52,950 bases of DNA from Patescibacteria group bacterium (lineage in GTDB: Bacteria; Patescibacteriota; Minisyncoccia; Minisyncoccales; UBA5738), in the NCBI GenBank assembly GCA_022710775.1, contig JAKLGH010000007.1:9184-62133 (forward strand), written 5' to 3'. Positions 7,693 to 32,774 of this stretch are shown in pieces. Position 1 is the first letter of the stretch. Every line of letters starts with the position of its first letter. The position numbers and the translations under genes were made by a program. The notes under the pieces are model-generated. The model was not told the origin of the DNA, ran no database searches, and saw only the letters and a program-made list of their open reading frames with translations.

Positions 7693-7885
7693 GTCCAAAT
7701 GGGCGATTATGCACTTTGAAAAGAAAAAATTAAGGTTTATGATAGAATAAACAACCTCGCTTTTGGGAGAATTGGTTGTTTATTGGTTCTCCGTATAATT
7801 GCGTACTAAAAAAACGCTATCGGAACCAATAATAGCGCAAAACCAAGCTTATGGCAGTTTTCTCAACAATTTATACGCTCCAACC

Positions 7886-18565: not shown

Positions 18566-19492
18566 ATGGCCAAACCAATCAACAAAAAATTATTTTCCTT
18601 GCTGGCGGTTGCCGGATGTTTCGCGTTTTTCGCGCTGGCCTACGCCCTGGAAACTTCCTGGCCGGAATCTCCGATGAAAACCAAGGTTGACGACACAACC
18701 AACCTGGCTGTTTTCATCAAATACATTTACGAGTGGGGGATAGCGCTGGGCGGCGTGGCAACCTTTATCGCTTTTGTGATCGCCGGGTTCCAATACATCA
18801 CTTCTATCGGCGATCCGCAAACCATGAAGGACGCCGTCGACCGCATCAAATCGGCGATGTTTGGCCTGGTGTTGCTGTTATCGGCTTACGTTCTGTTGAA
18901 TACCATCAATCCCGAATTGGTAAGCTTCCGCCTCGACCCTTTTAATCCCCAGCTTAACGGAGAATTTTTTGAGTCTTGCCAGGCAAACAGCGGCACTTGC
19001 AGACCAGGATACGAATGTAAATTACTTGGCGAAAAAGGCATCTGCTGGCCAAAAGATTATGCCGGCCCGGTCTGTAAAGATGCCGAAATCTATTCGCAAA
19101 CCAATTTCAAAGGGACTAAAACCGTCCTTAGCGTCAACGAAACCCTTGAAGGCGGAGACAACATGCCCAAATCGGTCAGAGCCCGATACATAGACGATGA
19201 TTGCAAAGAATACCTGAAAAAAAATAAAGACAAAGTGGACGGCAGAACCAGCTGTTATTGCGATGAACGGGTTGCTCCCAGCGGCGGGGAGGAAGAAGAT
19301 TCGACTACGATGGTCGGAGAGAAAAACGGCTGCGGCTGCGTGCTCCGGCTTTATAACGAAGATGACGGCTGGCTTTGGTCCGATTGCGGGGATGTGATCA
19401 CGGACGTGCCGGCCTACGAAGCCGATCTGACCCAATGGTTCGACCGGGACGTATATTGCGTGGAGCTTCTGTCGCCCGGAGCCGATAAGTAA
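18566..19492 (+). CDS. Pilin-like protein: signal peptide plus a 2-TM pilin-like domain, followed by a C-terminal Cys-rich extracellular domain
   Basis: AGFQYITSIGDPQTMKDAVDRIKSAMFGLVLLLSAYVLLNTI is paralogous to the other two pilin-like modules. The C-terminus contains about 14 Cys. Confidence 0.6.
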   Translation: MAKPINKKLFSLLAVAGCFAFFALAYALETSWPESPMKTKVDDTTNLAVFIKYIYEWGIALGGVATFIAFVIAGFQYITSIGDPQTMKDAVDRIKSAMFGLVLLLSAYVLLNTINPELVSFRLDPFNPQLNGEFFESCQANSGTCRPGYECKLLGEKGICWPKDYAGPVCKDAEIYSQTNFKGTKTVLSVNETLEGGDNMPKSVRARYIDDDCKEYLKKNKDKVDGRTSCYCDERVAPSGGEEEDSTTMVGEKNGCGCVLRLYNEDDGWLWSDCGDVITDVPAYEADLTQWFDRDVYCVELLSPGADK

Positions 19493-19519: not shown

Positions 19520-22294
19520 ATGGATAAAATTCCCAAAAAACCCAAATCGTTCCAAAGAGCCGTCATGGCTCTGGTTTCGGCTCTTACTATATTTACTTTA
19601 GTTATACCCGCATCTGCTGACGCCATCCTGCTCGACGATATTACCGGCATTTTCGAGAACGCTCTGGAAGCAAGCGACGAAGTAACATCGCCCCTTCTTT
19701 CCGTAGTTCCCAAGGTTGTCGTATATTATTCCCTTAGTCTGGTCTGTCTGGGTTTTTCAACCAGCACTTTAGAGTGGGTGATCAAAAACCCAAATTGGAT
19801 CAATCTTAGGGGAAAAGCGGTCACCAAGGGCTGGGCTCTGACCAGGGGAATGGCCAATATGTTCCTTTTGCTGATCTTTTTGGTCATCGCTTTCGGTTTC
19901 ATTTTAAGGCTCGAGTCGGTTGACGCGCCAAAGGCCCTGCCGCGGCTGATCATCGTCGCCCTTTTGATCAACTTCAGCAAGCTGTTTGTCGGCATGCTCG
20001 TTGATTTCGCGACAATCGCCAACAATACCATCATCTATGGCCACGAAGACTTGTTGAGAACGGTTGTAGATGGACTCGCTGGTTCTATATACGCTACTTT
20101 TGGCGTTATGCTTACGGGAGTGGTTAAATCCATCCTGGCCTATGCTGTTCCGCTGGCCGGTTTGCCTAAAGTTCTTATTACGGCCAGCTCCCTGCTTTTT
20201 AAAGGAGAATTTATCTCCCTTATGCCGATATGGGTAAGCCAGATCGTCGCCGCGTCGGCCCTGACGATGATTTTCTGCCTTTATATCATTTTGTTTGTCG
20301 CGCGCGTTTTTATTATCCAGATCTTGGCAATTTTGTCGCCCCTGGCCTTCCTGTGCCTTATTCTGCCGCAAACCCAAAAATACTGGGACGAGTGGCTTAA
20401 GCATCTCATCCAATGGACCTTTGTGGGAACAGTTTTGCTTTTCTTTTTAATGATCGGCTTAAGCGCCGGCAACGCGCTTTTGCCCAGCGCTAGCGATCCG
20501 GACCCGTTCACTTGGGGTAATTTGTTTCCCGTTCTCAACGTCCCCAAGTTTTTCATTTATTACATGTTTTTGTTCATTTATCTGGCGGTATCGTTCTGGA
20601 TGGTTGACCGCACCATGCCCATACTTGCCGTATCGATCATGGGCATGTCGCAAGGCCTGGCTTCCAAAGCCTGGAAAATGGGCGGCAAACAAGCCAAAGA
20701 TGACCTGTTCCAGCGCATAAACGAAAAAGCTGTGGCGCATCAAAAGCGGGACAAGGATTCTAGAGATGATAGCGGCAACCTTACGCTGGCCGGCAATGAC
20801 CGATTGATCCACCAGGCAAAAAGCTTTGCTTTTGCGCCAGTTCATGGTTTTCACCGCCTGAAACGAACCACGCCCAAACAGGCAGTCATCAAAGGCCAGA
20901 TGGCGGCTCGTGAACGGATGGAAAAGCTTTACGGAAAAGATGACGACGGCGTAGACCGGTTCATGGAAGCAATGGATGCCAATCCCAAGCTTCTCGGACA
21001 AATGGGCGCCACCGAACGGGTCGGCGCGCTTGAATACGGTTTAAAATATAAAGGTACTGAATTTGTTCAAAGCTTGCGCAAAAAAGGGGTACTCCATGAC
21101 ACCTTGCAACAAGCCGCCCCTTACAGCATGAGTAATGTTATCAAGGCGGTCGGATATGATCCGGCCAGTTTACAAGGCGCTAAAGGCCAAGCAATCGCCA
21201 GAACGATCGTAAAGGAAGATTCAAAAGGCAAAGAGAATCGTCATTTAGCCGAATACATCCATGGCAATATCGGCGACGCGGCACTCAACCAGAAAGCTGC
21301 CCTTTATACGGGCGCGGCAAAAATTATGGAGAAAAAAGATACCAGCGACAATTGGGATAGGGGCGTTTTCAAGATCAATCCCACCGATACGCCAGAAGAT
21401 CAACAAGCCACTCGCGATCTTCAGGAGGGTATTGCCTTTAAGGCAAGTAGCGGCCAGATCAGGAATATCGGCGATAAGCATGGCCAGGACGTTTTGGACG
21501 CAATTCAGGGGGAAATTGTTGAAAAGGATTATGGAAAATTCGCCGTTGCCAATCCTAAACTGGCCAACGCTCAAGCTATTAATTCCGGAACCGCGGAAGT
21601 TTTTCCGGCGCCTGACGATATCGCTTACATAACCGATCCGCAAACCGGCTTGGCTAAAAAACGGAAAAAAGAGCAGATGCAAGAAAGGATCCAAGGCGTC
21701 ATTAATGAAGAAAGGAACCGGCGGCCGGGACGTGGCCAACAAGCAGGCCAAAGAGCGCAGGGCGGCCGGCAACGCACCACCGGCCCTGGCCAGCAGCATT
21801 GGGGCAACCAGGGAGACGATACGGGCGATCAAGGCAATACGCCTCCTCCCGGCGGAGGGCCGGGACCGGGTACGCCGCCGCCTCCCGGAGGGCCGGGACC
21901 GGGCGGAGGAGCCGGAGGCGCAGGCGGTAGCAGGCGAGCCGGACAACGGACCGGCGCCGGCCCGGAATCGGGATTTGGCGGCGCGACGCGCAGGCAACAG
22001 GCCAGCCAAAGGCCGGGACAAGAAAACTTTGGCGATTTTGGCCGCAGCCGCCCGGGATCAGGCCGTAATCAGGACGCGCGCGACCAAGCCAACCAGACTA
22101 CATACCGCGAGCAAGAAGAAGAAAGGCAAGAAACCGAGCGTGCCGCGCAAGAAGCCGGGCGGCGCTATCCCAACGACGATCTGCGCGATCGCGACCGGCG
22201 GGACAGGGACGGCGGAACCACGCCCAGCGGCCGCACAACCGGCGTTTACCCGGACGACGTTAGTCGGCGCGGCGGAATCAACGGAAATCCTTAA
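19520..22294 (+). CDS. VirB6/TrbL-like polytopic membrane protein (signal peptide plus about 8 TM helices) with a roughly 330-aa low-complexity Gly/Pro/Arg/Gln/Asp-rich C-terminal tail
   Basis: TM-helix topology and size resemble VirB6/TrbL family proteins. The tail contains an imperfect tandem repeat at 21843-21910 (PPPGGGPGPGTPPPPGGPGPGGG). Confidence 0.55.
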   Translation: MDKIPKKPKSFQRAVMALVSALTIFTLVIPASADAILLDDITGIFENALEASDEVTSPLLSVVPKVVVYYSLSLVCLGFSTSTLEWVIKNPNWINLRGKAVTKGWALTRGMANMFLLLIFLVIAFGFILRLESVDAPKALPRLIIVALLINFSKLFVGMLVDFATIANNTIIYGHEDLLRTVVDGLAGSIYATFGVMLTGVVKSILAYAVPLAGLPKVLITASSLLFKGEFISLMPIWVSQIVAASALTMIFCLYIILFVARVFIIQILAILSPLAFLCLILPQTQKYWDEWLKHLIQWTFVGTVLLFFLMIGLSAGNALLPSASDPDPFTWGNLFPVLNVPKFFIYYMFLFIYLAVSFWMVDRTMPILAVSIMGMSQGLASKAWKMGGKQAKDDLFQRINEKAVAHQKRDKDSRDDSGNLTLAGNDRLIHQAKSFAFAPVHGFHRLKRTTPKQAVIKGQMAARERMEKLYGKDDDGVDRFMEAMDANPKLLGQMGATERVGALEYGLKYKGTEFVQSLRKKGVLHDTLQQAAPYSMSNVIKAVGYDPASLQGAKGQAIARTIVKEDSKGKENRHLAEYIHGNIGDAALNQKAALYTGAAKIMEKKDTSDNWDRGVFKINPTDTPEDQQATRDLQEGIAFKASSGQIRNIGDKHGQDVLDAIQGEIVEKDYGKFAVANPKLANAQAINSGTAEVFPAPDDIAYITDPQTGLAKKRKKEQMQERIQGVINEERNRRPGRGQQAGQRAQGGRQRTTGPGQQHWGNQGDDTGDQGNTPPPGGGPGPGTPPPPGGPGPGGGAGGAGGSRRAGQRTGAGPESGFGGATRRQQASQRPGQENFGDFGRSRPGSGRNQDARDQANQTTYREQEEERQETERAAQEAGRRYPNDDLRDRDRRDRDGGTTPSGRTTGVYPDDVSRRGGINGNP

Positions 22295-22345: not shown

Positions 22346-22377
22346 AGAAAAATAAAATAGGGATCTTGATATCCCTA
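22345..22377 (-). terminator. Terminator hairpin for the minus-strand SPFH gene (TAGGGAT-cttgat-ATCCCTA, T-rich on the minus strand). It overlaps the stop codon.
   Basis: Read directly. Confidence 0.5.
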
Positions 22378-23589
22378 TTCTTCCTCTTTATTTGATTTTC
22401 CTTTTTGTTGTGGCTGCCCTCCTTGCCTGGCCTGCATACCCCGCGACAATAAATGAAGCGGGGTAGTAAGACCCAACGGATCCTTGCCTTCGAGGCCAGA
22501 AACCTCTATTTGTTCCTGGTGCACATCTTTCTTGATAAGCTTGCGGAATAACAACCAGGTTTCCGTAGCTTTCTCCGGGTTCAGGCCGATTCTATCCCGC
22601 AACTCAATGATTGAATCGCGGAAATGCTCCCGCTCGGTCTTCTCGGACCTCTGCTCCAGTTCTTCTTTTGCCAGATCATCCCTGGCTTTCTGGATATAAT
22701 CCGGCAAGCCGATATCCGGTACCGTAATTTGCAGAATCTCGATACCGACAAGCCGAAGAACAAGGTGCCTGGAACCGTTATTAAAAGAACTGATCATTTC
22801 CGATTTCAAGGCTTCGTCTTCGACGTTGACAATCGTGCTGATGATCGCTTCGCGAAAACCCTTTTTATCTTTTAAGGCCTTTTCCATCTTTTTTGTAATG
22901 GCGTATTCACGAATCCCTTGATTAGTTGGATCGCTAATAATGTCTTCCACGCCTGCCGCTTGCCCGACATCCAGATAGCGAATGACGGAAAACGGATTCT
23001 TGTAATCAGGGTGCCAGGTCATGGAAGCTAAAACCCCGATTGTCCCATTCTTAACAGCAACTCTCACTTGGGACAAATCAGTGTTTTTATCCATCACATC
23101 GATCCGGATCACATCCCAAATAAAGGGGATCACCAGGCAGTATCCCTCTTGAACAAGATAAGGAATCCTGCCTCCCATCCAGGTACGAATGCCGATCTGT
23201 TTCGGCGTTGCCTGCACTTCCTTAATAAATAAAATTGCAAGCAAGCCGCTGGCCGCGAAACAACATAGAGCTTGGGTAAAATTTACCCAAACCCCGCCGG
23301 CCAGATAATAAAGGCCCAAAGCTAAGGGTAAGACCAGCAACAATCCGGCGAGCACATTCATGCGATGCTCAAGACTAGCCGCAGCAGCCATCTCTGTTTG
23401 CTGTTCTTCTGTATATTCAGAGCGCCCACTTGCTGTGGGTGCCGGCGTTTCTACCGCTGGTTCCGGTTCAGGCCTTGGTAGCCCATGTTCCGAACCTTCT
23501 GCCGGATTTTGATCTGTTCCGGCATTGCGCCCCGGCGTATCATCTTCGGAAGGTAGTACCGGGCCGTGCATTGGCCCAAAATTATCCAT
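22375..23589 (-). CDS. SPFH/band-7 (stomatin/prohibitin-like) membrane protein with a disordered N-terminal extension
   Basis: Two N-terminal hydrophobic helices are followed by a region with the flavour of an SPFH core (IRTWMGGRIPYLVQEGYCLVIPFIWDVIRIDVMDKNTDLSQVRVAVKNGTIGVLASMTWHP) and a coiled-coil C-terminus. Confidence 0.55.
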   Translation of the reverse strand: MDNFGPMHGPVLPSEDDTPGRNAGTDQNPAEGSEHGLPRPEPEPAVETPAPTASGRSEYTEEQQTEMAAAASLEHRMNVLAGLLLVLPLALGLYYLAGGVWVNFTQALCCFAASGLLAILFIKEVQATPKQIGIRTWMGGRIPYLVQEGYCLVIPFIWDVIRIDVMDKNTDLSQVRVAVKNGTIGVLASMTWHPDYKNPFSVIRYLDVGQAAGVEDIISDPTNQGIREYAITKKMEKALKDKKGFREAIISTIVNVEDEALKSEMISSFNNGSRHLVLRLVGIEILQITVPDIGLPDYIQKARDDLAKEELEQRSEKTEREHFRDSIIELRDRIGLNPEKATETWLLFRKLIKKDVHQEQIEVSGLEGKDPLGLTTPLHLLSRGMQARQGGQPQQKGKSNKEEE

Positions 23590-23760: not shown

Positions 23761-23788
23761 TTGCCCCCGATTTTCCCCATGTTATAAT
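23761..23788 (+). promoter_or_regulatory. Sigma70-like promoter with extended -10 (TTGCCC, 16 nt, TGtTATAAT) for ORF 23867-24262
   Basis: Read directly. Confidence 0.5.
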
Positions 23789-23866: not shown

Positions 23867-24262
23867 ATGCCTGAAAAAATCTCCAAACAAAAGTTTTGGG
23901 AGCTGTACCGTAAGCTTCCGACCGAACTTCAAGACGCGCTTTTCGACGACGATTTATGGAACAACGTTGCCGAAATTTGCAGCCGCTACCAAGCGAATGA
24001 TAGCCATGACCTGATATCGGACGGATTGTTCAATGTTTTGCTGGGCATCCTCCCTCCCAATATTTTCATCGACGGGCTGGCAAACGAGCTAAAAACCGAT
24101 AAAGCCACAACGAGCCGGATCATCCATGAGATCAACCGATTTGTCTTATTCCCCGTAAAAGAAGCCCTGGAGGATATTTATAATCTTCAAATGACCCCGC
24201 TTGCCGGAGCTCCTTCGCCCAACGCCACAAAAAGAAGCGCCTACCAGGAGCCGATAGGGTAG
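23867..24262 (+). CDS. Hypothetical soluble protein of 131 aa, first gene of the PrgI/VirB4 sub-cluster
   Basis: ORF track. No motifs recognised. Confidence 0.5.
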   Translation: MPEKISKQKFWELYRKLPTELQDALFDDDLWNNVAEICSRYQANDSHDLISDGLFNVLLGILPPNIFIDGLANELKTDKATTSRIIHEINRFVLFPVKEALEDIYNLQMTPLAGAPSPNATKRSAYQEPIG

Positions 24263-24372: not shown

Positions 24373-24810
24373 ATGAATTTCATCCTACCCCAATTCATCG
24401 ATATGGAAACCAAGGTGATCGGACCGCTCACTTTGAAGCAATTCATATACCTCGGGATCGGGGGCGGAGCGTCGCTCTTCCTTTACATGATGTCAACCTC
24501 CAATCCGGAGGGGTTTCCTTTAATAGCCTGCCTGGCTATAGTGATACTCATTATGCTGGTTTCGTTCGCCCTCGCCTTCGTTAAGGTGAACGGGATAACT
24601 CTGCCGGTACTGATAAAACATTCCTTCCTTTTTAACCTGGCGCCCAAAATTTATCTTTGGAAAAAATTCCCTAACGCCAAAATCGTCAACCCAAACCAGG
24701 GAGTGATTAAAATAGTAAAAGGACCGGCAAGCAAAAAAGCCGACCGGGTCACTACAAAAAAAAGCGAACTGAAAAAATTAAGGAACTTTATGGAAACGAA
24801 AGGCAATTGA
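24373..24810 (+). CDS. PrgI/VirB3-like small membrane protein of a Gram-positive-type T4SS
   Basis: A 145-aa protein with an N-terminal motif (IPQFIDMETKVIGPLTLKQFIYL) and two TM helices, lying immediately upstream of VirB4. This is the typical PrgI-PrgJ arrangement. Confidence 0.6.
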   Translation: MNFILPQFIDMETKVIGPLTLKQFIYLGIGGGASLFLYMMSTSNPEGFPLIACLAIVILIMLVSFALAFVKVNGITLPVLIKHSFLFNLAPKIYLWKKFPNAKIVNPNQGVIKIVKGPASKKADRVTTKKSELKKLRNFMETKGN

Positions 24811-24832: not shown

Positions 24833-25459
24833 ATGGCATTCACATCAACCCAACAATTCCTAGAGATCGACCAGATAAAAGAAGGCGTTATCGTCTTAAA
24901 AAACAAGGCTCTGCGCGGCCTCCTGATGGTTTCTTCGATCAATTTCGCTTTAAAAGCGGAAGACGAGCAAACCGCCATTATTTACCAATTCCAGAGTTTT
25001 CTCAATTCGCTGGATTTTTCGCTGGAAATTTTTATCCAAAGCCGGCAGCTGAATATCACGAATTACCTGGATAAGTTAAAAGACCTGGAAATAAGGCAAA
25101 CCAACGACCTTTTAAGGATCCAAACCGCCGAATACCGAAAGTTCATCAATGAGCTGATATCGTCGGGTTCGATCATGAATAAAACCTTTTACGTGGTCAT
25201 CCCTTTCACTTTGATGAATCTGCCTAACCTCCCGAAATCAAAAGAAGCGGCCAGGTCCGCCAGCGAGGAACAATTCCAGCGCGCCAAATCCCAGTTATGG
25301 CAGCGGATGGAATTCGTGGCGCTCGGCCTCCGGCGCTGCGGCCTTCAATGCGTTCCGTTGAACAGCCTGGAACTGGTTGAATTCTTTTGGAGCCTGTACC
25401 ATCCGCAGGAATCGGAAAGCGGTTATTATCCTGAAATCCCGCCGGAGCTGATAACTTGA
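24833..25459 (+). CDS. virB4: VirB4/TraC-family ATPase, N-terminal fragment (208 aa)
   Basis: ...IDQIKEGVIVLKNKALRGLLMVSSINFALKAEDEQTAIIYQFQSFLNSLDFSLEIFIQSRQLN resembles the extreme N-terminus of Gram-positive VirB4 (PrgJ/ConE-like) proteins. It terminates at a TGA at 25457-25459. Confidence 0.55.
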   Translation: MAFTSTQQFLEIDQIKEGVIVLKNKALRGLLMVSSINFALKAEDEQTAIIYQFQSFLNSLDFSLEIFIQSRQLNITNYLDKLKDLEIRQTNDLLRIQTAEYRKFINELISSGSIMNKTFYVVIPFTLMNLPNLPKSKEAARSASEEQFQRAKSQLWQRMEFVALGLRRCGLQCVPLNSLELVEFFWSLYHPQESESGYYPEIPPELIT

Positions 25460-25487
25460 TCCGCTCCGTTATCCAACGTTAAATTCT

Positions 25488-27278
25488 ATGGGTCTTTTCT
25501 CTTCCAAAAAAAAGCAAAAAAAACAGGATTTAGGCCAAAGCCTCGAGATCAACACGATCAATATCAAGGATATCATCGCGCCTTCTTCGATCGCTTTGTC
25601 CAGCGAATATCTTAAGCTGGGGGAAAAATTCGGAAAATCCTTCTTTATTTTTTCTTATCCGCGCTATTTGACGACGGGGTGGTTTGCGCCGATCATCAAT
25701 CTGGAAAGCCCGATGGATATTTCTTTCCATATCCATCCGATCGAGACAGGAACAACGTTGAAACAGCTGCGGAAAAAGCTCACTGAAGTGCAAGCCGAGC
25801 TGATGGAAAGGGAAGAAAAGGGGTTGGTGCGCGATCCCGCGCTGGAAATCGCTTACCAGGACCTTGAATCCCTCCGCGACAAGCTCCAAACCTCCCAAGA
25901 GCGCATGTTCAAGCTTGGAATATACCTTACGGTTTATGAAAATTCCTTGGAAAAATTGAAATCCGTTGAAACGACCCTCCGGTCGATACTTGAATCGAAA
26001 TTAATATATATCAAGCCGTCTCTTTACCAGCAAAAGGAGGGATTCACTTCAACCTGCCCTTACGGTTTAGACGAGATCAATGCGCATACTCCGATGAATA
26101 CCGGACCGCTTTCTTCAACTTTCCCCTTCATCTCCTTTGATTTAAGCGCCAACGACGGCATCCTCTACGGCGTGAACCTCCACAATAATTCTTTGATCCT
26201 GTTTGACCGGTTCAGCCTTGAAAACGCCAACAGCGTGATCTTCGCCAAATCCGGCGCCGGTAAGAGTTACGCCATCAAGCTGGAAGTCCTGCGCTCCATG
26301 ATGATGGGAGTTGAATCGATCATCGTCGATCCGGAAAACGAATACCGGGCCCTCGCGGAAGCGGCCGGAGGTTCATTCATCAACATCTCCCTTACGTCGC
26401 CAAACCATATCAATCCGTTCGATTTGCCGATCCCGCGAGACGACGAGGATCCGGAAAACGTGTTGCGCAGCAATATTATCAACCTGGTTGGCCTTGTCCG
26501 GATCATTTTAGGGGGCTTGTCGCCCGAGGAAGACGCGATCATCGACCGGGCCCTCACGGAAGTTTACGCCGCCAAAGACATCACGCCGGAAACCGACCCC
26601 AGCCTCTGGAAAGAAAGAACGCCGTTGATGCAAGATCTGGAAGCCGTGCTTGAAGGCATGGAAGGAACGGAATCGCTTGTAAGGAGAATCAGAAAATTCA
26701 CCAAGGGAACGTACGCGCAATTTTTCAACCAGCCAAGCAATATCTCAATGGATAAGCTGATGGTGGTTTTCGGCATCCGCGACATGGAGAACGAGTTGCG
26801 TACGGCAGCAATGTTTATTATTATGCGCCATATCTGGAACAAAGTAAGGATGACTTTGAAAAAAAGAATCTTGGTGGTCGACGAGGCTTGGTGGCTTATG
26901 CAAACCGAAGATGGAGCGTCTTTCCTGTACGGTCTTTGCAAAAGGGCCAGAAAATACTGGCTTGGCGTTACCACCATCACGCAAGACGTTGGCGATTTCA
27001 TGAAATCAACTTATGGCCAGCCGATTATTACCAACTCATCGATACAGTTTTTAATGAAGCAATCTCCGGCAACGATCGATATCCTCCAAAAAACTTTTAA
27101 CCTTACCGAAGGAGAAAAAAATCTTTTGCTCGAAGCCGAAGTGGGGGAGGGGCTTTTCTTTGCCGGCCAGAAACACGTTGCCATAAAAGGAATCGCTTCC
27201 TACGTGGAAGATCAAATCATCACCACCAGCCCCGAAGAGATCCAAAAGATCAAAAAGGCAAAAAGCGGCAACGAATGA
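25488..27278 (+). CDS. virB4: VirB4/TraC-family ATPase, main fragment (596 aa)
   Basis: Walker A FAKSGAGKSYAI and Walker B ILVVDEAWW, plus the VirB4 N-domain motif KFGKSFFIFSYPRYLTTGWFAPIIN. It is in a different reading frame from the upstream fragment. The two frames overlap over only about 5 nt around 25455. Confidence 0.85.
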   Translation: MGLFSSKKKQKKQDLGQSLEINTINIKDIIAPSSIALSSEYLKLGEKFGKSFFIFSYPRYLTTGWFAPIINLESPMDISFHIHPIETGTTLKQLRKKLTEVQAELMEREEKGLVRDPALEIAYQDLESLRDKLQTSQERMFKLGIYLTVYENSLEKLKSVETTLRSILESKLIYIKPSLYQQKEGFTSTCPYGLDEINAHTPMNTGPLSSTFPFISFDLSANDGILYGVNLHNNSLILFDRFSLENANSVIFAKSGAGKSYAIKLEVLRSMMMGVESIIVDPENEYRALAEAAGGSFINISLTSPNHINPFDLPIPRDDEDPENVLRSNIINLVGLVRIILGGLSPEEDAIIDRALTEVYAAKDITPETDPSLWKERTPLMQDLEAVLEGMEGTESLVRRIRKFTKGTYAQFFNQPSNISMDKLMVVFGIRDMENELRTAAMFIIMRHIWNKVRMTLKKRILVVDEAWWLMQTEDGASFLYGLCKRARKYWLGVTTITQDVGDFMKSTYGQPIITNSSIQFLMKQSPATIDILQKTFNLTEGEKNLLLEAEVGEGLFFAGQKHVAIKGIASYVEDQIITTSPEEIQKIKKAKSGNE

Positions 27279-27330
27279 TCTTGTTACCGCCCTTCAAAAC
27301 AGGATTTCGAACCAAAATATTACGGAAACA

Positions 27331-27356
27331 AAAAACGGGCAGTGCCCGTTTTTTTT
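27331..27356. terminator. Bidirectional terminator between convergent virB4 and jag (AAAAACGGGC-agt-GCCCGTTTTTTTT)
   Basis: Read directly. Confidence 0.7.
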
Positions 27357-27369
27357 GATCTTTTTTAGG

Positions 27370-27843
27370 CTATGCCGCCGGCCTCACTATCACTTTTCTT
27401 CTTGGCTCTTCCCCGACGCTGGCCGTCCTTATGTCCTGGCGTTGCGACAGCTCGACATGCACGATCCGTCTCTCATAAGGAGTCATTGGCGGCAGCAATT
27501 TTTCGCGGCGGCTTAATGACACCTCGTCAGCCGTCGACTTTGCCAGCTCCCTTAAATATTCCGCTTTCTTTTTTTTATAATTATTGATATCCAGATCAAC
27601 ATAGACGGTATCCGATATTTGGCGCTTCAGTACGATCTTTAAAAGATGCTGGATCTCGAAAAGAGTTTCCCCGTTCTGGCCGATCAAAGTCTGCGGCTCT
27701 TCCAGCTTTAACTCAACCGGAATCGTTGATTCTTTAACCGGCAAAACGTCCACCTTGGCTTCAAAGCCTAATTTTTGGAAAAACTCCTCAACCGTTTTCT
27801 TGATTTTTTTCGAATCGGTTTTGTTCATCATATTTTTTTGCAA
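27370..27843 (-). CDS. jag: Jag/KhpB RNA-binding protein (KH plus R3H domains)
   Basis: Domain order, and its position downstream of yidC in the conserved rpmH-rnpA-yidC-jag cluster. Confidence 0.8.
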   Translation of the reverse strand: MQKNMMNKTDSKKIKKTVEEFFQKLGFEAKVDVLPVKESTIPVELKLEEPQTLIGQNGETLFEIQHLLKIVLKRQISDTVYVDLDINNYKKKKAEYLRELAKSTADEVSLSRREKLLPPMTPYERRIVHVELSQRQDIRTASVGEEPRRKVIVRPAA

Positions 27844-27883
27844 TTAATAAAGATAAAAAAGAATAACCGCTTCTTTTGACAGC

Positions 27884-28627
27884 CTATACCCGGCTTACTG
27901 ACGCCCCAAGCTTGGCCGAAACCAAGCTTCTCAAAACCAAATATTGCTGGGCAATGGAAAAAACGCTTGATGTAATCCAATAAAGGCTAAGTGCGGACGG
28001 CAGTTTCCAAAAAATAAATACCGTAACAGCGGGAAAAAAGTAAAGCATATACTTCTGCATTTGGCTTTGCATCTCTTCCATCATGTCGGTTTCTCCGCCG
28101 TTGCGCGTAGCGCGGGGAGTCAGATCGGTGACCATTTTTGTCTGGAAGTATTGCAAAACACCGGCAATAATAGCCATAAATAAACTTCCTTTAGCCAAGT
28201 CAAAGCCAAAAAAATTGGAATCAATCATTCCGGGATTGGAAACCGAAGGATACAGTTTGGTTAATATTTCAGGGGTGATGCCGTAAAAAAATACGTAATA
28301 CAGCCCGATCATTATCGGAACCTGGATCAAAATCAGCAAAACTCCTTTTAACGGATTTAGCTTGTTCTCTTTGAAAAGATCCATCGTTAAAAGCGTCTGC
28401 TTTTCCTTGTCGTTCTTATATTTATTCTTGATCTCTTTGATCTTTGGCTGAAGATCGGATGTGATCTTTTGGATCCGGATAGATTCGGACGCCAAAGGAT
28501 AGAGCAAAAGCCTGATCAAAACAGTCAGCACGATAACCGCCAGGCCAAAACTATGGCTAGGCAGGTAATTATAAATGATGATCAGCGCGTTCAGCAGCGG
28601 CTGATAAAAGATTTGAAAGAAATTCAT
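27884..28627 (-). CDS. yidC: Membrane protein insertase YidC (short Gram-positive/CPR form, 247 aa)
   Basis: Multi-TM protein with the conserved YidC/Oxa1 core, in its canonical cluster position. Confidence 0.85.
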   Translation of the reverse strand: MNFFQIFYQPLLNALIIIYNYLPSHSFGLAVIVLTVLIRLLLYPLASESIRIQKITSDLQPKIKEIKNKYKNDKEKQTLLTMDLFKENKLNPLKGVLLILIQVPIMIGLYYVFFYGITPEILTKLYPSVSNPGMIDSNFFGFDLAKGSLFMAIIAGVLQYFQTKMVTDLTPRATRNGGETDMMEEMQSQMQKYMLYFFPAVTVFIFWKLPSALSLYWITSSVFSIAQQYLVLRSLVSAKLGASVSRV

Positions 28628-28977
28628 AGCTTGTCGCTCATAATTATTCCCGAACGCGCAAAACTCTTTTTCATGTCTTTTTCGATTCGCGGATAATCCA
28701 TTTTTTCCAATCCAGGCATGGCTATAAAGATCAAGTCATGACCGGGCTTAAGAAGGGGAAGGGCGGCTCTGGCTATTTCTCTCATCCGCCTTTTAATCAA
28801 ATTGCGGCCGACTGCGGTTTTGGAAACGCGCTTAGACACCACAAAACAAAAACGAACAGTTTCCAGCCGGCTCTTGGCTGTTTTTAATACCAAGAACCCT
28901 TCTTTAACGCTTTTCCCCCGCAAAAAAACGCCGTCAATCTCTTTTTTTTTACACAGACGGTTGATTTTTGGGAGCAT
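28624..28977 (-). CDS. rnpA: Ribonuclease P protein component
   Basis: RnpA-like sequence (…RLKKKEIDGVFLRGKS…FVVSKRVSKTAVGRNLIKRRMRE…). Located between rpmH and yidC. Confidence 0.85.
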   Translation of the reverse strand: MLPKINRLCKKKEIDGVFLRGKSVKEGFLVLKTAKSRLETVRFCFVVSKRVSKTAVGRNLIKRRMREIARAALPLLKPGHDLIFIAMPGLEKMDYPRIEKDMKKSFARSGIIMSDKL

Positions 28978-28980
28978 GGG

Positions 28981-29115
28981 TTAAGCTGAAAGCCGTTTTC
29001 TGCCTTTGGCGCGCCGCGCCTTTATAACTCTTTTGCCGCCGGTTGTTCGAGTTCTTTTCAGAAAACCATGGGTTTTTCTCCTTTTTTTCTTTTTTGGCTG
29101 GTATGTTGTGCTCAT
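28981..29115 (-). CDS. rpmH: 50S ribosomal protein L34 (44 aa). It is absent from the ORF track because it is under 60 aa.
   Basis: Hand translation of the minus strand gives [44 protein letters not shown], a canonical L34. Confidence 0.85.
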
Positions 29116-29921
29116 ATTATGGTTGTGTCGCGGCTAATTTTAAGCCGAAATTAATAGATTGCCTGGGAGCGGCGCGTTCTTTTTATTTTTTCGCTCCCAA
29201 TCAAAATTTTTAAAACTTTCTTGTTTTTTTAGGAACAAGAAAAACAAATATTATTTTGCTTTCGGACCACAAAATAATAAGTTTATTGTACATTTTTTTA
29301 GGATTTTGTAAACGCTGGCCCCGGAATTCCCGGAAATTCCGGGCGTTTCCCCGGTTATCCCCTCAAATATGCGCCTTTTCCACTGTTTTTCCACACTATT
29401 TAACGCTCTGGATATATTCTCTGCCGTTCAAATATCGCCTTTTGGATTTTTGCCGGCCGTTTTTCTTGCAATTTTAATTGTTTTTGACTATTTTAAATTT
29501 ATGATACTATGAGTTATAGCAAAATTCCCGACGGCCCGTTGTTCGGGAATTTTAGGGCCAAAAAATAAACTACCCCGGGGCAGAGCCCCGAGGTATTCCT
29601 ACCGCTCCGCTATCGCTTCGCGGATAGGAAAAGTATGTTTTTCCTCCGCTTCGCTCCGGGCTGACATTCATCCCCGCGGCAAAGCCGACGGGGTATTCTG
29701 TCAGATTAATAAAAAAGGCCTTTTGTCTTTTTGTGCTGTTTTTCCCGCTTTCATTAAGCTCGGTGCGCAAGACAGTCGACACGACCATAATCTATCCAAG
29801 CCTCTTTTTCGAATACTGGCTGTTCGAAAAGGTTTAAAACATCTACTGCCTATCTCCGCGAAACGCGAAGAATTTTACCTCGTTTCAAGGTATTAAGCGC
29901 GAAAGGCAACAATTTCCCATC
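29116..29921. promoter_or_regulatory. Putative oriC part 1 (rpmH-dnaA intergenic)
   Basis: Tandem DnaA-box-like sites TTTTCCACT (29365-29373) and TTTTCCACA (29376-29384), plus TTATCCCCT at about 29352. AT-rich tracts at 29170-29300. CCCCGGAAT(T) palindromic motifs at 29306-29345. Position between rpmH and dnaA. Confidence 0.55.
29563..29735 (+). ncRNA. Candidate structured small RNA or element inside the oriC region. It begins with the motif AAATAAACTAC-CCGGGGCAGAGCCCCG-GGTATTC (also present at 1308-1347). It contains a 9-bp bulged hairpin (CCCCGCGGC-aaa-GCCGaCGGGG) and ends in a terminator-like AAAAAAGGCCTTTTGTCTTTTTG.
   Basis: Read directly. Strand and RNA status are inferred only. Confidence 0.35.
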
Positions 29922-31286
29922 ATGACAAACGAAGAAGTTTGGCAAGCAGTCTTGGCCCAAATACAATTAACGGTCTCTCCGGCTAATTTCACCACTTGGT
30001 TCAAATCAACCAATATTGTTTCGATTAATGAAGGCGGAGTCGTAATATCGGTATCCAATTCGTTTGTCAAAGAATGGCTGGAACAAAAATACCAAAAACA
30101 GATCCTTAAAATTCTGCACACCATCAACGAAGATATCCGGGAAATCATTTTTTTGGTAAAAAAAGACGCGGTTAAAATCCAAAAAGATCCGGTTGTTGTC
30201 AGCGCCAAAAACAACACTCGGCTTGAGGGAGTGGGGCAGCTTGGCTTTGAAGAATTTAAAATAAGCAAAGAAAGCAATTTAAACCCAAAATATTGTTTTG
30301 ATAATTTTATCGTCGGGCCATATAATGAACTGGCCCACGCCGCTTCTTGGGCGGTGGCAAAAAACCCTGGTACGGCATACAACCCGTTGTTTATCTACGG
30401 CGGAGTCGGGCTTGGAAAAACCCACTTGCTACAGGCGGCAGGCAACGAGATTGCGAATAAATATCCGGACAAGAAAGTAAAATATATCCCGACCGAAAAA
30501 TTCACTTCCGAAATCATTTCGTCGATCAAGAACGGAGAAATGGAAAGCTTGAAGGCAAAATACCATGATATTTCCGTCTTGATCATCGACGATATCCAAT
30601 TTCTGGCCAATAAAGAAAAAACCCAAGAAGAGTTTTTTCATATTTTTAACAGCCTCTACAACAAAAATAAGCAGATCATTCTTTCCTCCGACCGCGCCCC
30701 GAAAGCCATACCGGCCCTAACCGAACGTTTGCGCTCCCGATTCGAAGGGGGAATGATAGCCGATGTCAGCCTGCCGGACTATGAAACAAGGCTGGCCATT
30801 CTTAAAGCCAAATGCCAGCAAATGTCCTTAAATTTCCCGGATGACGTCCTTTCTTTTATCGCTTCCAACGTCCAAAGCAACATTAGGGAGCTTGAAGGCG
30901 CTTTAACCAAGCTGGCCGCCCACGTAAAATTCCAAAACGTATCCCCCGACACTGAAATATGCAAGGCGGTTTTATTATCGCTTACTCCGAAGAAAGTAAT
31001 TAGCTTGAAAAAAGTAATTCAAGGCGTGACCGAATTTTACGATTTAAAAGAAAAAGACCTGATGTCCTCTTCAAGAAAGAAAGAAATCGTAAAGCCGCGC
31101 CAGGTAATCATGTATCTGTTAAGAGAAGAGCTAAAAGCGTCTTTTCCGTTCATCGGAAGGAAGCTGGGCGATAAAGACCATACTACCGTTATACATGCTT
31201 ACAAAAAAATTGCTTCCGAAATAAAACTTAACGAGGGGTTGCAGGAAGAGATAAACCTTTTAAAACAAAAAATTTATAATTCCTGA
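29922..31286 (+). CDS. dnaA: Chromosomal replication initiator DnaA
   Basis: AAA+ Walker A (GGVGLGKTHLLQA), sensor motifs, and a C-terminal DnaA-box-binding domain. Confidence 0.95.
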   Translation: MTNEEVWQAVLAQIQLTVSPANFTTWFKSTNIVSINEGGVVISVSNSFVKEWLEQKYQKQILKILHTINEDIREIIFLVKKDAVKIQKDPVVVSAKNNTRLEGVGQLGFEEFKISKESNLNPKYCFDNFIVGPYNELAHAASWAVAKNPGTAYNPLFIYGGVGLGKTHLLQAAGNEIANKYPDKKVKYIPTEKFTSEIISSIKNGEMESLKAKYHDISVLIIDDIQFLANKEKTQEEFFHIFNSLYNKNKQIILSSDRAPKAIPALTERLRSRFEGGMIADVSLPDYETRLAILKAKCQQMSLNFPDDVLSFIASNVQSNIRELEGALTKLAAHVKFQNVSPDTEICKAVLLSLTPKKVISLKKVIQGVTEFYDLKEKDLMSSSRKKEIVKPRQVIMYLLREELKASFPFIGRKLGDKDHTTVIHAYKKIASEIKLNEGLQEEINLLKQKIYNS

Positions 31287-31640
31287 GTTTTCAAACGAGC
31301 TTTGGTTTTGCTTTTTTCGCCGAAATTACAAAAACCACAAAACGTTTCAAATATTCGGCAATTGTTTAAAAGAGGTGGAAAACCAAGTGAAAAAGTCAAT
31401 AATTGGTTGAGCGTAGCTGGTTGATAAAATCACCCTTTATTGCCCGGCCCAATCATTCCTCTAACCATCCACAACAAATTATCATCCCTTATCCCCATTT
31501 ATTCCTACCGCGTTTGAATTCAAACCAACGGTTTTCCACAGCGCTAATAATAGTAATAATAAATAAAAATATTAAAAATTTAAAAAATAATATTATTAAA
31601 GAGGGTGAGGGTAAACTTTAAAAAACCGCCCAAACATTAA
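31287..31640. promoter_or_regulatory. Putative oriC part 2 / DNA-unwinding element (dnaA-dnaN intergenic)
   Basis: DnaA-box-like TTATCCCCA (31489-31497) and TTTTCCACA (31532-31540), followed by a 70-nt stretch that is over 90% A+T (31545-31615). Confidence 0.5.
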
Positions 31641-32774
31641 ATGAAAGTAACTATTTTGCAAGAAAAACTAAAAGAAGGGCTGATGAATGTTGAGAAAGTA
31701 ACGGGAAAGGAATCAACTTTGCCGATTTTAAACAACGTTTTAATGAAAACGGATAAAAATTTCCTTGATCTTGTGGCCACCAATTTAGAAACAGGAATTT
31801 TATGGAAAATCCTGTCCAAAACCGAACAAGAGGGGGTCGCTGTTCTTCCGGCCGGGGTTTTTTCTGGTTTTATCGGCTCCTTGCCCGGCAAGTCGATCGA
31901 AATAGATTCGGATAATTCTCAAATTACGGTTTTAAGCGAAAAGCATAAATCGGTTTTTAAGGGATTTAATGCGGAGGATTTTCCAACCTTGCCGTTTAAT
32001 ACCGAGGGTGAATCTGTAGAAGTTAAGGCTGGCGCTTTTTGTGAAATGCTGAGCCAGGTGGCTAATTTTGCCAGCATTTCAACCATTAAACCGGAAATTG
32101 CCGGAGTCTATCTTGTTTTTAAGAAAGACCTGATAAAGGCTGTTGCTACCGATGGTTTCCGGCTGGGCGAAAAGACGATATATCTGGCTAAAAAACAGGA
32201 ACTGTCTAAAGATTATTCCTTGATTTTACCGCAACGCGCCGTAAAAGAGATTGTAGGCGTTTTTTCCGGGCATGACAAAAACATTAAAATCTATTTTTCG
32301 CCAAACCAAATAACCGTTGAGTCTGTTTCCGGCGATATGGATTTTCCTCAAATCCAATACGTATCAAGGTTGATTGAGGGGGAATTTCCGAATTACGAAG
32401 AGATTATCCCCAAGGCGTATAAAACAACCGCTGTTTTTCCAAGGAAGGAGTTTTTAGGCAACGTTAAATCAGCAAGCTTGTTCAGCGGAAAAATCAATGA
32501 AATTAATTTAAGGATATCGATAGAAGAATCAAAGGCAGAAATATTCAGCCAAACAACCGAGCTGGGGGAATGTCAAAGCGAGATTAAATTATCGAAGGCC
32601 GAGGGCAATGATCTGAAAATATCGTTTAATTACAAGTTTTTGATCGATGGTTTGAGCGCGATCAAAAGCGATAATTGCGCCTTTGATTTTTCCGGAGAAG
32701 ATAGCGCCGGCGTGTTGAAGCCGGAAGGAGACGGAACTTTTATATATATTTTGATGCCGATCAAAAAAAATTAG
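31641..32774 (+). CDS. dnaN: DNA polymerase III beta sliding clamp
   Basis: Three-domain clamp of 377 aa, in the canonical position after dnaA. Confidence 0.9.
   Translation: MKVTILQEKLKEGLMNVEKVTGKESTLPILNNVLMKTDKNFLDLVATNLETGILWKILSKTEQEGVAVLPAGVFSGFIGSLPGKSIEIDSDNSQITVLSEKHKSVFKGFNAEDFPTLPFNTEGESVEVKAGAFCEMLSQVANFASISTIKPEIAGVYLVFKKDLIKAVATDGFRLGEKTIYLAKKQELSKDYSLILPQRAVKEIVGVFSGHDKNIKIYFSPNQITVESVSGDMDFPQIQYVSRLIEGEFPNYEEIIPKAYKTTAVFPRKEFLGNVKSASLFSGKINEINLRISIEESKAEIFSQTTELGECQSEIKLSKAEGNDLKISFNYKFLIDGLSAIKSDNCAFDFSGEDSAGVLKPEGDGTFIYILMPIKKN

What the first reader, a model, noticed from the sequence alone, without database searches (positions are those of the whole stretch)
24833..27278. 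VirB4 ATPase encoded as two ORFs in different frames (+1 shift near 25455)
ORF 24833-25459 encodes what looks like the extreme N-terminus of a Gram-positive-type VirB4, and ORF 25488-27278 encodes the rest. The rest comprises the VirB4 N-domain motif FxFSYPR..W..I and the Walker A/B ATPase. Together they total 804 aa, which is the normal VirB4 length. The second frame opens at 25455, exactly where the first ends (TGA at 25457). So this is either a genuine split, a programmed or tolerated frameshift, a recent pseudogenisation, or an assembly indel. The rest of the locus looks intact.
Basis: seen in the sequence. Interest (0 to 1): 0.6.

Follow-up and report, generated by a model that had tools for sequence, protein, structure and literature searches.

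The report
Natural two-gene VirB4 (TrsD plus ATPase)
The "frameshifted" VirB4 is two intact neighbouring genes, a small TrsD-like protein with the VirB4 N-terminal fold followed by a short VirB4 ATPase; this arrangement is conserved across Patescibacteria, shared with staphylococcal conjugative plasmids and already published, so it is ordinary.

Summary
ORF 24833-25459 (208 aa) and ORF 25488-27278 (596 aa) lie in different frames. They match positions 2-171 and 179-734 of one full-length VirB4 profile.

It is not a frameshift, pseudogene or assembly error.
- In 78 of 78 testable loci from different species, the same ~200-220 aa protein ends in a stop. The ATPase then starts at its own start codon (an ATG in 76).
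- The relative frame takes all three values (19/24/35). Spacing runs from a 4-nt ATGA overlap to 173 nt.
- The termini are conserved as termini: ...GYYPEIPPEL-stop, and M..PFFKKKK...KDIIAPSS.
- dN/dS is about 0.02-0.03 for both genes.
- The exact two proteins recur in 6-7 contigs held by several public sources.
- Plasmid pSK41 has the same gene order (VirB3-like, TrsD, TrsE), and the break point coincides to within about 20 residues.
- The predicted fold of ORF1 best matches TrwK/VirB4 of plasmid R388.

A 2025 paper (PMC12102498) already reports TrsD homologues next to virB4 as the most abundant T4SS component in Patescibacteria, and the homologue is listed as essential in one cultured strain.

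Verdict: already known, low interest.

The parts
23761..23788 (+). Promoter-like site (TTGCCC-16-TATAAT with TG) upstream of the four-gene block. Possible operon start.
   Evidence: Consensus scan only. This is an inference, not evidence of function.
23867..24262 (+). 131-aa ORF of unknown function, conserved in this position upstream of the PrgI-like gene.
   Evidence: ORF. No Pfam hit. A 131-132 aa gene sits at the same position in the close relatives L081-L086.
24373..24810 (+). PrgI family (VirB3-like) small membrane protein, 145 aa.
   Evidence: Pfam PF12666 PrgI, E 1e-9, 39.3 bits against a cutoff of 27. Same position as the VirB3-like gene before trsD in pSK41.
24833..25459 (+). TrsD-like protein, 208 aa. 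It is a stand-alone homologue of the extreme N-terminal domain of VirB4 (Pfam PF26593 'TraC-like').
   Evidence: NCBIfam hits: CD1110 VirB4 profile positions 2-171 (E 3e-8), Mbov_0397 VirB4 (E 7.6e-10), TrsD/TraD family (E 1.4e-4). There are 5,842 homologues, and the best 120 are all 192-221 aa. AF2 model pLDDT is 87, and its top 14 PDB matches are all TrwK/VirB4 of R388. dN/dS is 0.017-0.031.
25460..25487 (+). 28-nt intergenic spacer between the two genes.
   Evidence: The spacer is 28 nt in the 97%-identical relatives and 129-130 nt in the 93%-identical relatives. Across species it ranges from -4 to +173 nt.
25488..27278 (+). Short-form VirB4 ATPase, 596 aa. It carries the rest of the N-domain (FIFSYPR at 25644-25664), Walker A (26244-26267) and Walker B (26868-26885).
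   Evidence: NCBIfam CD1110 VirB4 376 bits against a cutoff of 325, profile positions 179-734. Pfam P-loop_TraG, AAA_10 and DUF87. BLASTP against pSK41 TrsE gives E 8e-37, aligned from residue 4. Motif coordinates.
25506..25523 (+). A8-GC-A8 tract encoding the Lys-rich N-terminus (KKKQKK) of the ATPase.
   Evidence: The Lys-rich N-terminal motif (FFKKKK) is conserved in orthologues and in pSK41 TrsE (FLKKKKQ), so it is coding sequence and not a slippage artefact.
27330..27354 (+). Terminator-like hairpin (11-pair stem followed by a T run) after the ATPase gene.
   Evidence: Consensus scan. Only short, weak terminator-like matches (5-pair stems) lie inside the PrgI-like gene (24497-24511) and ORF1 (25363-25379), and none lies in the 28-nt spacer.
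18566..19492 (+). T4SS pilin-domain protein (308 aa), part of the same T4SS neighbourhood.
   Evidence: Pfam PF18895 T4SS_pilin, E 5.8e-9.
19520..22294 (+). Large VirB6/TrbL-like membrane protein (924 aa).
   Evidence: Pfam PF04610 TrbL, E 8.5e-4, below the curated cutoff. Weak.

Best explanation
These are two separate, functional, probably co-transcribed genes of the chromosomal type IV secretion system typical of Patescibacteria (here a Nealsonbacteria/Paceibacterota genome). ORF1 is a TrsD-like protein. It is the free-standing equivalent of the first ~200 residues of a monoderm VirB4. ORF2 is a short VirB4 with the remainder of the N-domain and the Walker A/B ATPase. Each gene is translated from its own ATG and ends at its own stop codon.

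Inferred mechanism: the two polypeptides assemble non-covalently into a VirB4-equivalent unit. The TrsD-like subunit supplies the N-terminal surface that, in the R388 T4SS, connects VirB4 to the inner-membrane complex that also contains VirB3, VirB6 and VirB8. It would therefore dock the ATPase hexamer to the PrgI/VirB3-like protein encoded just upstream and to the membrane translocon. The ATPase would then power assembly and substrate or pilin movement.

Shown here: the gene boundaries, their conservation, purifying selection on both genes, homology to the two parts of VirB4, and homology and synteny with pSK41 TrsD/TrsE. Inferred: the physical TrsD-VirB4-PrgI interaction, co-transcription, and what the system transports.
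For: - Profile colinearity: ORF1 covers positions 2-171 and ORF2 covers positions 179-734 of the CD1110 VirB4 model.
- Homologues: 5,842 for ORF1, and the best 120 are all stand-alone proteins of 192-221 aa. In the search of 1.84 billion representatives, 149 of the best 150 are 125-443 aa and only one is 797 aa.
- Species survey: 80 loci from distinct species were fetched, and 78 of 78 testable loci have the split. ORF1 stop codons are TAA 53, TGA 16, TAG 9. The relative frame is 0 in 19 loci, +1 in 24 and +2 in 35. The gap runs from -4 (ATGA overlap) to +173 nt.
- Termini are conserved as termini...GYYPEIPPELxx-stop, and M..PFFKKKK...KDIIAPSS.
- Closest relatives keep the TGA, but the spacer is 28, 129 or 130 nt.
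- The exact ORF1 and ORF2 proteins occur on 6-7 contigs in NCBI (three accession numbers each), JGI, ENA and Logan.
- dN/dS is 0.017-0.031 for ORF1 and 0.024 for ORF2.
- pSK41 has the same order: a 135-aa VirB3-like gene, trsD (227 aa), then a 672-aa VirB4. ORF2 residue 4 aligns to TrsE residue 5 (E 8e-37). ORF1 aligns to TrsD up to residue 215 of 227 (E 6e-6; hhalign E 1.2e-4).
- The AF2 model of ORF1 (pLDDT 87) has TrwK/VirB4 chains of R388 as its top 14 PDB matches, with TM up to 0.60.
- PMC12102498 reports 2,272 TrsD homologues in Patescibacteria, 1,664 of them adjacent to virB4. The homologue in Ca. Southlakia epibionticum ML1 is listed as essential.
Against: - No direct evidence here that the two proteins interact, or that ORF1 contacts PrgI.
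- The match of ORF1 to the curated TrsD/TraD model is far below its cutoff (21.8 against 200 bits). The hhalign probability against pSK41 TrsD is only 55%.
- Foldseek E-values for the VirB4 matches are marginal (about 2e-3), although probability is 0.96-1.00 and no other protein ranks among the top 14.
- No Shine-Dalgarno-like sequence is evident by eye before either ATG, so initiation signals are not defined. This was not scanned.
- A fused 797-aa form exists in Ca. Colwellbacteria, so the split is not obligatory for function.
Confidence: 0.93

Rival explanations
1. Programmed (or tolerated) +1 ribosomal frameshift at ACU-UGA-U (25454-25460). This would produce a fused 804-aa VirB4, as at the prfB or antizyme stop-codon shift sites.
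For: The ORF2 frame opens at 25455, two bases before the ORF1 stop codon. A +1 slip exactly at the stop would therefore join the frames. The codon context xxU-UGA-U superficially resembles the antizyme UCC-UGA-U site (own knowledge). A fused form is viable in Ca. Colwellbacteria.
Against: - The 11 codons between 25455 and the ATG are not conserved. Relatives at 93% identity carry a 129-130 nt insert with stop codons at that point.
- The codon before the stop differs even in the closest relatives (ACT against GTC).
- Across 78 species the frame relation is 0, +1 or +2, and 19 loci are in the same frame separated by a stop.
- The downstream gene has a start codon preceding a conserved N-terminal motif in every locus, an ATG in 76 of 78.
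- No Shine-Dalgarno-like stimulator is seen upstream by eye (not scanned).
- tRNA-Thr on ACU cannot re-pair on CUU (own knowledge).
Confidence: 0.02
2. Recent pseudogenisation: a single-base indel or nonsense mutation broke an intact virB4 in this lineage.
For: Two adjacent ORFs in different frames that add up to a normal VirB4 length. Full-length fused relatives exist (P0249, 797 aa).
Against: - The split is present in all 78 testable species loci, with ORF1 identity of 61-73%.
- dN/dS of ORF1 is 0.017-0.031, as low as the ATPase at 0.024.
- The lengths and termini of both proteins are conserved.
- The same break point occurs in pSK41 TrsD/TrsE.
- The TrsD homologue is reported essential in Ca. 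S. epibionticum.
Confidence: 0.01
3. Assembly or sequencing indel, for example in a homopolymer, that artificially splits one ORF.
For: The metagenome-derived sequence has two A8 runs just downstream of the junction, at 25506-25523.
Against: - The A-runs lie inside ORF2, downstream of its ATG. They encode a conserved Lys-rich motif.
- The exact 208-aa and 596-aa proteins occur on 6-7 contigs from several public sources, with three NCBI accession numbers each.
- Relatives at 97% and 93% identity have the same 208-aa ORF and the same TGA.
Confidence: 0.01
4. ORF1 is an independent T4SS accessory protein that merely shares ancestry with the VirB4 N-terminus. It now does something other than complete the VirB4 unit, for example acting as a regulator or adaptor for other partners.
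For: [quoted passage not shown]
- In Gracilibacteria, TrsD homologues are not adjacent to virB4.
- Many homologues carry long low-complexity C-terminal tails, with total lengths of 300-443 aa.
Against: - Adjacency and frequent translational-coupling-like overlaps (ATGA) with virB4 in the Paceibacteria-type loci.
- The fused Colwellbacteria protein shows the two parts work in one polypeptide.
- The fold matches the VirB4 N-domain of R388.
Confidence: 0.03

Closest known systems
TrsD-TrsE (TraD-TraE) pair of staphylococcal conjugative plasmids pGO1/pSK41 (MPF_FATA, pGO1 subclass)
   Same: Same gene order: VirB3-like small membrane protein, then a ~200-230 aa TrsD, then a short VirB4 ATPase. The break point coincides to within about 20 residues: ORF2 residue 4 aligns with TrsE residue 5, both with a Lys-rich N-terminus, and the ORF1 alignment ends 12 residues before the TrsD C-terminus and 19 before its own. 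Both TrsD proteins are remote homologues of the VirB4 N-terminus.
   Different: Sequence similarity is low: 21% identity for ORF1/TrsD and 23% for ORF2/TrsE. ORF1 scores far below the curated TrsD/TraD cutoff. The plasmid system is a conjugation machine with a relaxase and a VirD4-like coupling protein nearby. The window locus is chromosomal, lies beside rnpA-yidC-jag and dnaA-dnaN, and no relaxase or coupling protein was found in the ORFs scanned.
Patescibacteria chromosomal T4SS as described by Quinonero-Coronel et al. 2025 (PMC12102498), and the Ca. Southlakia epibionticum ML1 system
   Same: Same component set: VirB4, TrsD, PrgI/VirB3, VirB6 and a VirB2-like pilin. Same chromosomal context near dnaA, dnaN, rnpA and ksgA. 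TrsD is adjacent to virB4.
   Different: Nothing substantive. This window is another member, from a Nealsonbacteria/Paceibacterota genome.
Full-length monoderm VirB4 (CD1110 family; pCF10 PrgJ and ICEBs1 ConE from own knowledge) and the fused 797-aa VirB4 of Ca. Colwellbacteria (P0249)
   Same: The domain content is colinear. ORF1 matches P0249 residues 8-213 (37% identity). ORF2 residues 25-594 match P0249 residues 229-797 (55% identity). Both sit next to a PrgI/VirB3-like gene.
   Different: The parts form one polypeptide there and two here. The ~15-residue linker of the fused form is replaced by a conserved C-terminus, a stop codon, a spacer and a Lys-rich N-terminus.
TrwK/VirB4 of plasmid R388 (PDB 7O41/7O43/8RTB/8RTD)
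   Same: The predicted fold of ORF1 best matches this protein (top 14 hits, TM up to 0.60). This supports the N-domain identity and the docking role inferred from that structure.
   Different: That system is diderm and its VirB4 is one polypeptide. Sequence identity is 10-15%.

Membership tests
VirB4 ATPase, CD1110 family (NCBIfam NF045971) | Whole-protein score above the curated cutoff | tested here: met
   ORF2 scores 376.4 bits against a cutoff of 325, E 2.7e-112.
VirB4 ATPase, CD1110 family (NCBIfam NF045971) | Walker A and Walker B NTPase motifs | tested here: met
   AKSGAGKS at residues 253-260 and ILVVDE at residues 461-466 of ORF2. Pfam P-loop_TraG, E 2.8e-24.
VirB4 ATPase, CD1110 family (NCBIfam NF045971) | The first ~170 profile positions (extreme N-domain) lie in the same polypeptide | tested here: not met
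   ORF2 starts at profile position 179. Positions 2-171 are matched by the separate ORF1.
TrsD/TraD family conjugative transfer protein (NCBIfam NF041427; MPF_FATA TrsD) | Score above the curated family cutoff | tested here: not met
   21.8 bits against a cutoff of 200, E 1.4e-4. ORF1 is a remote homologue, not a member by the NCBI criterion.
TrsD/TraD family conjugative transfer protein (NCBIfam NF041427; MPF_FATA TrsD) | Detectable homology to a prototype TrsD over most of its length | tested here: inconclusive
   BLASTP against pSK41 TrsD gives E 6e-6 over 178 colinear residues at 21% identity. hhalign of a 49-sequence profile against TrsD gives E 1.2e-4 with probability 55%. PMC12102498 assigns these proteins to TrsD using its own HMMs.
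TrsD/TraD family conjugative transfer protein (NCBIfam NF041427; MPF_FATA TrsD) | A stand-alone ~200-230 aa protein encoded between a VirB3-like gene and a short VirB4 gene | tested here: met
   Window order is PrgI (145 aa), ORF1 (208 aa), ORF2 (596 aa). pSK41 order is 135 aa, TrsD (227 aa), 672 aa.
Pfam PF26593 'TraC-like' domain | Match to the Pfam model | tested here: inconclusive
   The precomputed annotation lists PF26593 for all 120 best homologues, including those 97% and 93% identical. The local Pfam copy gave no hit for ORF1 itself at E <= 0.1, probably because of a version difference.
VirB4 N-terminal domain fold | Predicted structure superposes on the N-domain of a solved VirB4 | tested here: met
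   AF2 pLDDT 87.2 and pTM 0.74. Foldseek PDB ranks 1-14 are all TrwK/VirB4 of R388, with probability 0.96-1.00, TM(query) 0.31-0.60 and E 2e-3 to 2.5e-2. The region matched in the target was not printed.
Programmed +1 frameshift genes (prfB/antizyme type) | Shift site and frame relation conserved among orthologues, with no independent start for the downstream frame | tested here: not met
   Frame relations are 0:19, +1:24 and +2:35. Gaps run from -4 to +173 nt. A start codon precedes a conserved N-terminal motif in every locus, an ATG in 76 of 78. The codon before the stop varies.
Pseudogene (disrupted virB4) | Relaxed selection and lineage-restricted disruption | tested here: not met
   dN/dS is 0.017-0.031 for ORF1. 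The split is present in 78 of 78 species loci, and there are thousands of stand-alone homologues.

The most novel reading that the evidence does not exclude
The most novel reading not excluded has two parts.

First, the break point is shared to within about 20 residues by Patescibacteria and the pGO1/pSK41 plasmid lineage. This may mark one ancient fission, or an ancestral two-subunit state that re-fused in lineages such as Ca. Colwellbacteria.

Second, the free N-domain subunit may be functionally significant. It could be a dissociable adaptor whose stoichiometry or binding regulates docking of the VirB4 hexamer to PrgI/VirB3 and VirB6, which would make assembly of this essential T4SS a controllable step.

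A much less likely reading (about 2%) is a low-level +1 frameshift at ACU-UGA-U in this strain that yields some fused protein.
Probability: 0.2. Interest if true: 0.4.

Novelty: already known. Interest (0 to 1): 0.12.

Why it matters
The main value is for annotation. Adjacent TrsD-like and short VirB4 genes in Patescibacteria, and in pGO1/pSK41-type plasmids, should not be flagged as frameshifted or pseudogenised virB4. TrsD-like ORFs labelled 'hypothetical protein' (as in the public records seen here) can be named.

Biologically, it adds one more example of the chromosomal, oriC-proximal T4SS that is reported essential for epibiotic growth in a cultured patescibacterium. The function of TrsD is still unassigned. 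The observations that it is the detached VirB4 N-domain with a conserved break point, and that a fused form exists in Colwellbacteria, give a simple testable hypothesis: it docks the ATPase to VirB3.

Tried and rejected
- The local Pfam scan of ORF1 gave no family at E <= 0.1, although the precomputed tables list PF26593 'TraC-like' for its homologues. I treated this as a version difference.
- A sequence-profile search of the PDB with the ORF1 family found nothing meaningful. The only hit was a ketoacyl-ACP reductase at E 0.85. The link to solved VirB4 came only from the fold comparison.
- Recoding of TGA (as in Gracilibacteria and Absconditabacteria, own knowledge) was considered. I rejected it because orthologues end ORF1 with TAA (53), TAG (9) and TGA (16), and reading through TGA stays in the wrong frame and hits TAA about 50 codons later, at 25611-25613.
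- The A8-GC-A8 tract was considered as a slippage or indel site. I rejected it because it lies downstream of the ORF2 ATG and encodes a conserved Lys-rich motif.
- The promoter and terminator scan gives only consensus matches, so the operon structure remains an inference.
- I did not attempt a complex prediction of PrgI with ORF1 and ORF2, because the structure tool takes single chains only.
- Two of the 80 loci (L022, L074) could not be tested because the contig ends just after the ORF1 homologue.
Full report
**Observation**

ORF1 is 24833-25459 (208 aa, stop TGA at 25457). ORF2 is 25488-27278 (596 aa, ATG start). ORF2 is +1 relative to ORF1. The ORF2 frame is closed by TAA at 25452-25454 and opens at 25455.

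Against the NCBIfam full-length monoderm VirB4 model NF045971 (CD1110 family, 752 positions), ORF1 matches positions 2-171 (E 3e-8). ORF2 matches positions 179-734 (E 2.7e-112, 376 bits against a cutoff of 325). The statement that the two ORFs together equal one VirB4 is therefore correct.

ORF1 also gives a weak hit to the TrsD/TraD family (NF041427, E 1.4e-4). The ORF just upstream (24373-24810) is a PrgI/VirB3-like protein.

**Is the split real and conserved?**

- **Stand-alone homologues.** ORF1 has 5,842 homologues in the 5.8-billion-protein collection. The best 120 are all stand-alone proteins of 192-221 aa from Nealsonbacteria, Paceibacterota and other Patescibacteria. In an exhaustive HMMER search of 1.84 billion representatives, 1,948 proteins match. 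Of the best 150, 149 are 125-443 aa and one is 797 aa.
- **Species survey.** I fetched 80 loci from different GTDB species and located the homologues of both ORFs in each. Two loci end too early to test. In the other 78, the ORF1 homologue (198-221 aa) ends in a stop codon (TAA 53, TGA 16, TAG 9). The ATPase homologue then starts at its own start codon just downstream (an ATG in 76 loci).
- **Frames and spacing.** The relative frame is 0 in 19 loci, +1 in 24 and +2 in 35. The spacing ranges from a 4-nt ATGA overlap to 173 nt.
- **Conserved termini.** ORF1 homologues end ...GYYPEIPPEL-x-x-stop. The ATPases begin M..PFFKKKK...KDIIAPSS.
- **Closest relatives.** At 93-97% protein identity the TGA is kept, but the spacer is 28 nt, 129 nt or 130 nt.
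- **Independent recovery.** The exact 208-aa and 596-aa proteins of the window occur on 6-7 contigs in NCBI (three accession numbers each), JGI, ENA and Logan.
- **Selection.** Nei-Gojobori dN/dS against the close relatives is 0.017-0.031 for ORF1 and 0.024 for ORF2.

Together these results exclude an assembly indel, a recent pseudogene and a programmed frameshift.

**What it is**

Staphylococcal plasmid pSK41 has the same three genes in the same order: a 135-aa VirB3-like gene, trsD (227 aa) and a 672-aa VirB4 (TrsE).

- ORF2 aligns to TrsE from residue 4 to residue 5 onward (E 8e-37). Both begin with a Lys-rich stretch, FSSKKKQKK and FLKKKKQEQ.
- ORF1 aligns colinearly to TrsD up to residue 215 of 227 (BLASTP E 6e-6). 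A 49-sequence profile gives hhalign E 1.2e-4 with probability 55%.

The break point therefore falls at essentially the same place in both systems, to within about 20 residues.

An AlphaFold2 model of ORF1 built from that alignment is confident (pLDDT 87, pTM 0.74). Its 14 best Foldseek matches in the PDB are all TrwK/VirB4 chains of the R388 T4SS (probability 0.96-1.00, TM up to 0.60, E 2e-3 to 2.5e-2). A sequence-profile search of the PDB found nothing.

One patescibacterial lineage, Ca. Colwellbacteria, has the fused state. P0249 is 797 aa and its cluster has three members from three contigs. ORF1 matches its residues 8-213 (37% identity). ORF2 residues 25-594 match its residues 229-797 (55% identity). 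The fused protein confirms that the two window genes are the two halves of one VirB4 architecture.

**Context**

The locus is chromosomal and housekeeping-flanked.

- Upstream on the + strand: PNPase, a ComM-like ATPase, KsgA, an Ig-like 786-aa protein, a T4SS-pilin protein and a VirB6/TrbL-like 924-aa protein. An M23/LysM peptidase and an SPFH protein lie among them on the opposite strand.
- Then: the 131-aa ORF, PrgI, the TrsD-like gene and VirB4.
- Downstream: jag-yidC-rnpA on the opposite strand, followed by dnaA, dnaN, PBP1, TyrRS and others.
- No relaxase or VirD4-like protein was found among the ORFs scanned.
- A promoter-like site at 23761-23788 and a strong terminator-like hairpin at 27330-27354 bracket the four-gene block. 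Between them only short, weak terminator-like matches (5-pair stems) occur, inside the PrgI-like gene and ORF1, and none in the 28-nt spacer. These are consensus scans only.

**Comparison with the literature**

Quinonero-Coronel et al. 2025 (PMC12102498) describe this situation directly.

- It was the most abundant T4SS component found in Patescibacteria, with 2,272 homologues in 2,221 assemblies. Of these, 1,664 are adjacent to virB4.
- The homologue in Ca. Southlakia epibionticum ML1 is listed as essential.
- The paper also reports the dnaA/dnaN/rnpA/ksgA neighbourhood seen in this window.

**Mechanism (inferred)**

ORF1 and ORF2 are made as separate polypeptides and assemble into a VirB4-equivalent unit. 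By analogy with R388, ORF1 supplies the N-terminal surface that connects VirB4 to the inner-membrane complex, which also contains VirB3, VirB6 and VirB8. It would therefore dock the ATPase hexamer to PrgI and the membrane translocon.

The gene boundaries, conservation, selection and homologies are shown here. The interaction and the operon structure are inferred.

**Verdict**

The frameshift, pseudogene and assembly-error readings are rejected. This is a new instance of an already described arrangement, and its interest is low.

Noticed in passing
L001:4661-8434 (CP179887.1, Ca. Nealsonbacteria complete genome); L011:1682-5032; also L007 (ORF of 1263 aa): In three other species the VirB4 ATPase gene is 1117-1263 aa. 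In the two scanned with Pfam (L001, L011) it carries an intein with a LAGLIDADG homing-endonuclease domain, inserted before or within the P-loop domain (Pfam Intein_splicing E ~1e-20, LAGLIDADG_3 E ~1e-16). The window gene has no intein.
   Followed up: partly
P0249 / P0271 / P0272 (Ca. Colwellbacteria, 797 aa): A fused TrsD-VirB4 single polypeptide exists in one patescibacterial lineage, with three cluster members on three contigs. It is the only full-length protein among the best 150 representatives. Fission and fusion states therefore coexist within the phylum.
   Followed up: partly
L085:3845-3850 (JGI 3300037067 contig, 97% relative of the window): The conserved Trp codon of the VirB4 motif SYPRYLTTGW is TGA instead of TGG, so the gene was called as 64 aa plus a second ORF. 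It could be a nonsense variant, a sequencing error or a strain-level pseudogene. The window has TGG.
   Followed up: partly
P0156 (432 aa), P0187 (443 aa) and about 30 other representatives of 300-443 aa: Many TrsD-like homologues carry a 100-230 aa low-complexity C-terminal tail rich in Pro, Ala, Gln and Thr after the conserved ~200-aa domain. Its function is unknown.
   Followed up: no
window 25506-25523: Two A8 runs separated by GC encode KKKQKK at the N-terminus of the ATPase. The Lys-rich N-terminus is conserved in orthologues and in pSK41 TrsE. The homopolymers make this spot prone to indel errors in other assemblies.
   Followed up: yes
window 7799-11035 (+): A 1078-aa ORF with no Pfam hit lies in a stretch with a very strong A-over-T skew (AT skew 0.41 at 8001-10000). 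It may be a low-complexity or surface protein.
   Followed up: no
window 15381-17741, 17751-18545, 41625-42848, 42852-44102 (+): Large ORFs without a family assignment. 15381-17741 has only a sub-threshold Ig-like hit. The first two lie immediately upstream of the T4SS pilin and VirB6-like genes and may be further T4SS or surface components.
   Followed up: no
window 27370-32774: The cluster jag(KhpB)-yidC-rnpA on the minus strand, followed by dnaA and dnaN on the plus strand, places the T4SS block right beside the probable replication origin. This matches what is reported for Paceibacteria in PMC12102498.
   Followed up: partly
window 38502-39830 (-): A T2SSE/PilB-type ATPase (Pfam T2SSE, E 2e-117) is encoded about 11 kb from the T4SS block. 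It belongs to the type IV pilus or type II secretion family of machines.
   Followed up: no
window 22375-23589 (-): An SPFH/Band 7 protein with a long disordered N-terminus is encoded divergently between the VirB6-like gene and the PrgI block. The same gene sits at this position in the close relatives L081-L084.
   Followed up: no
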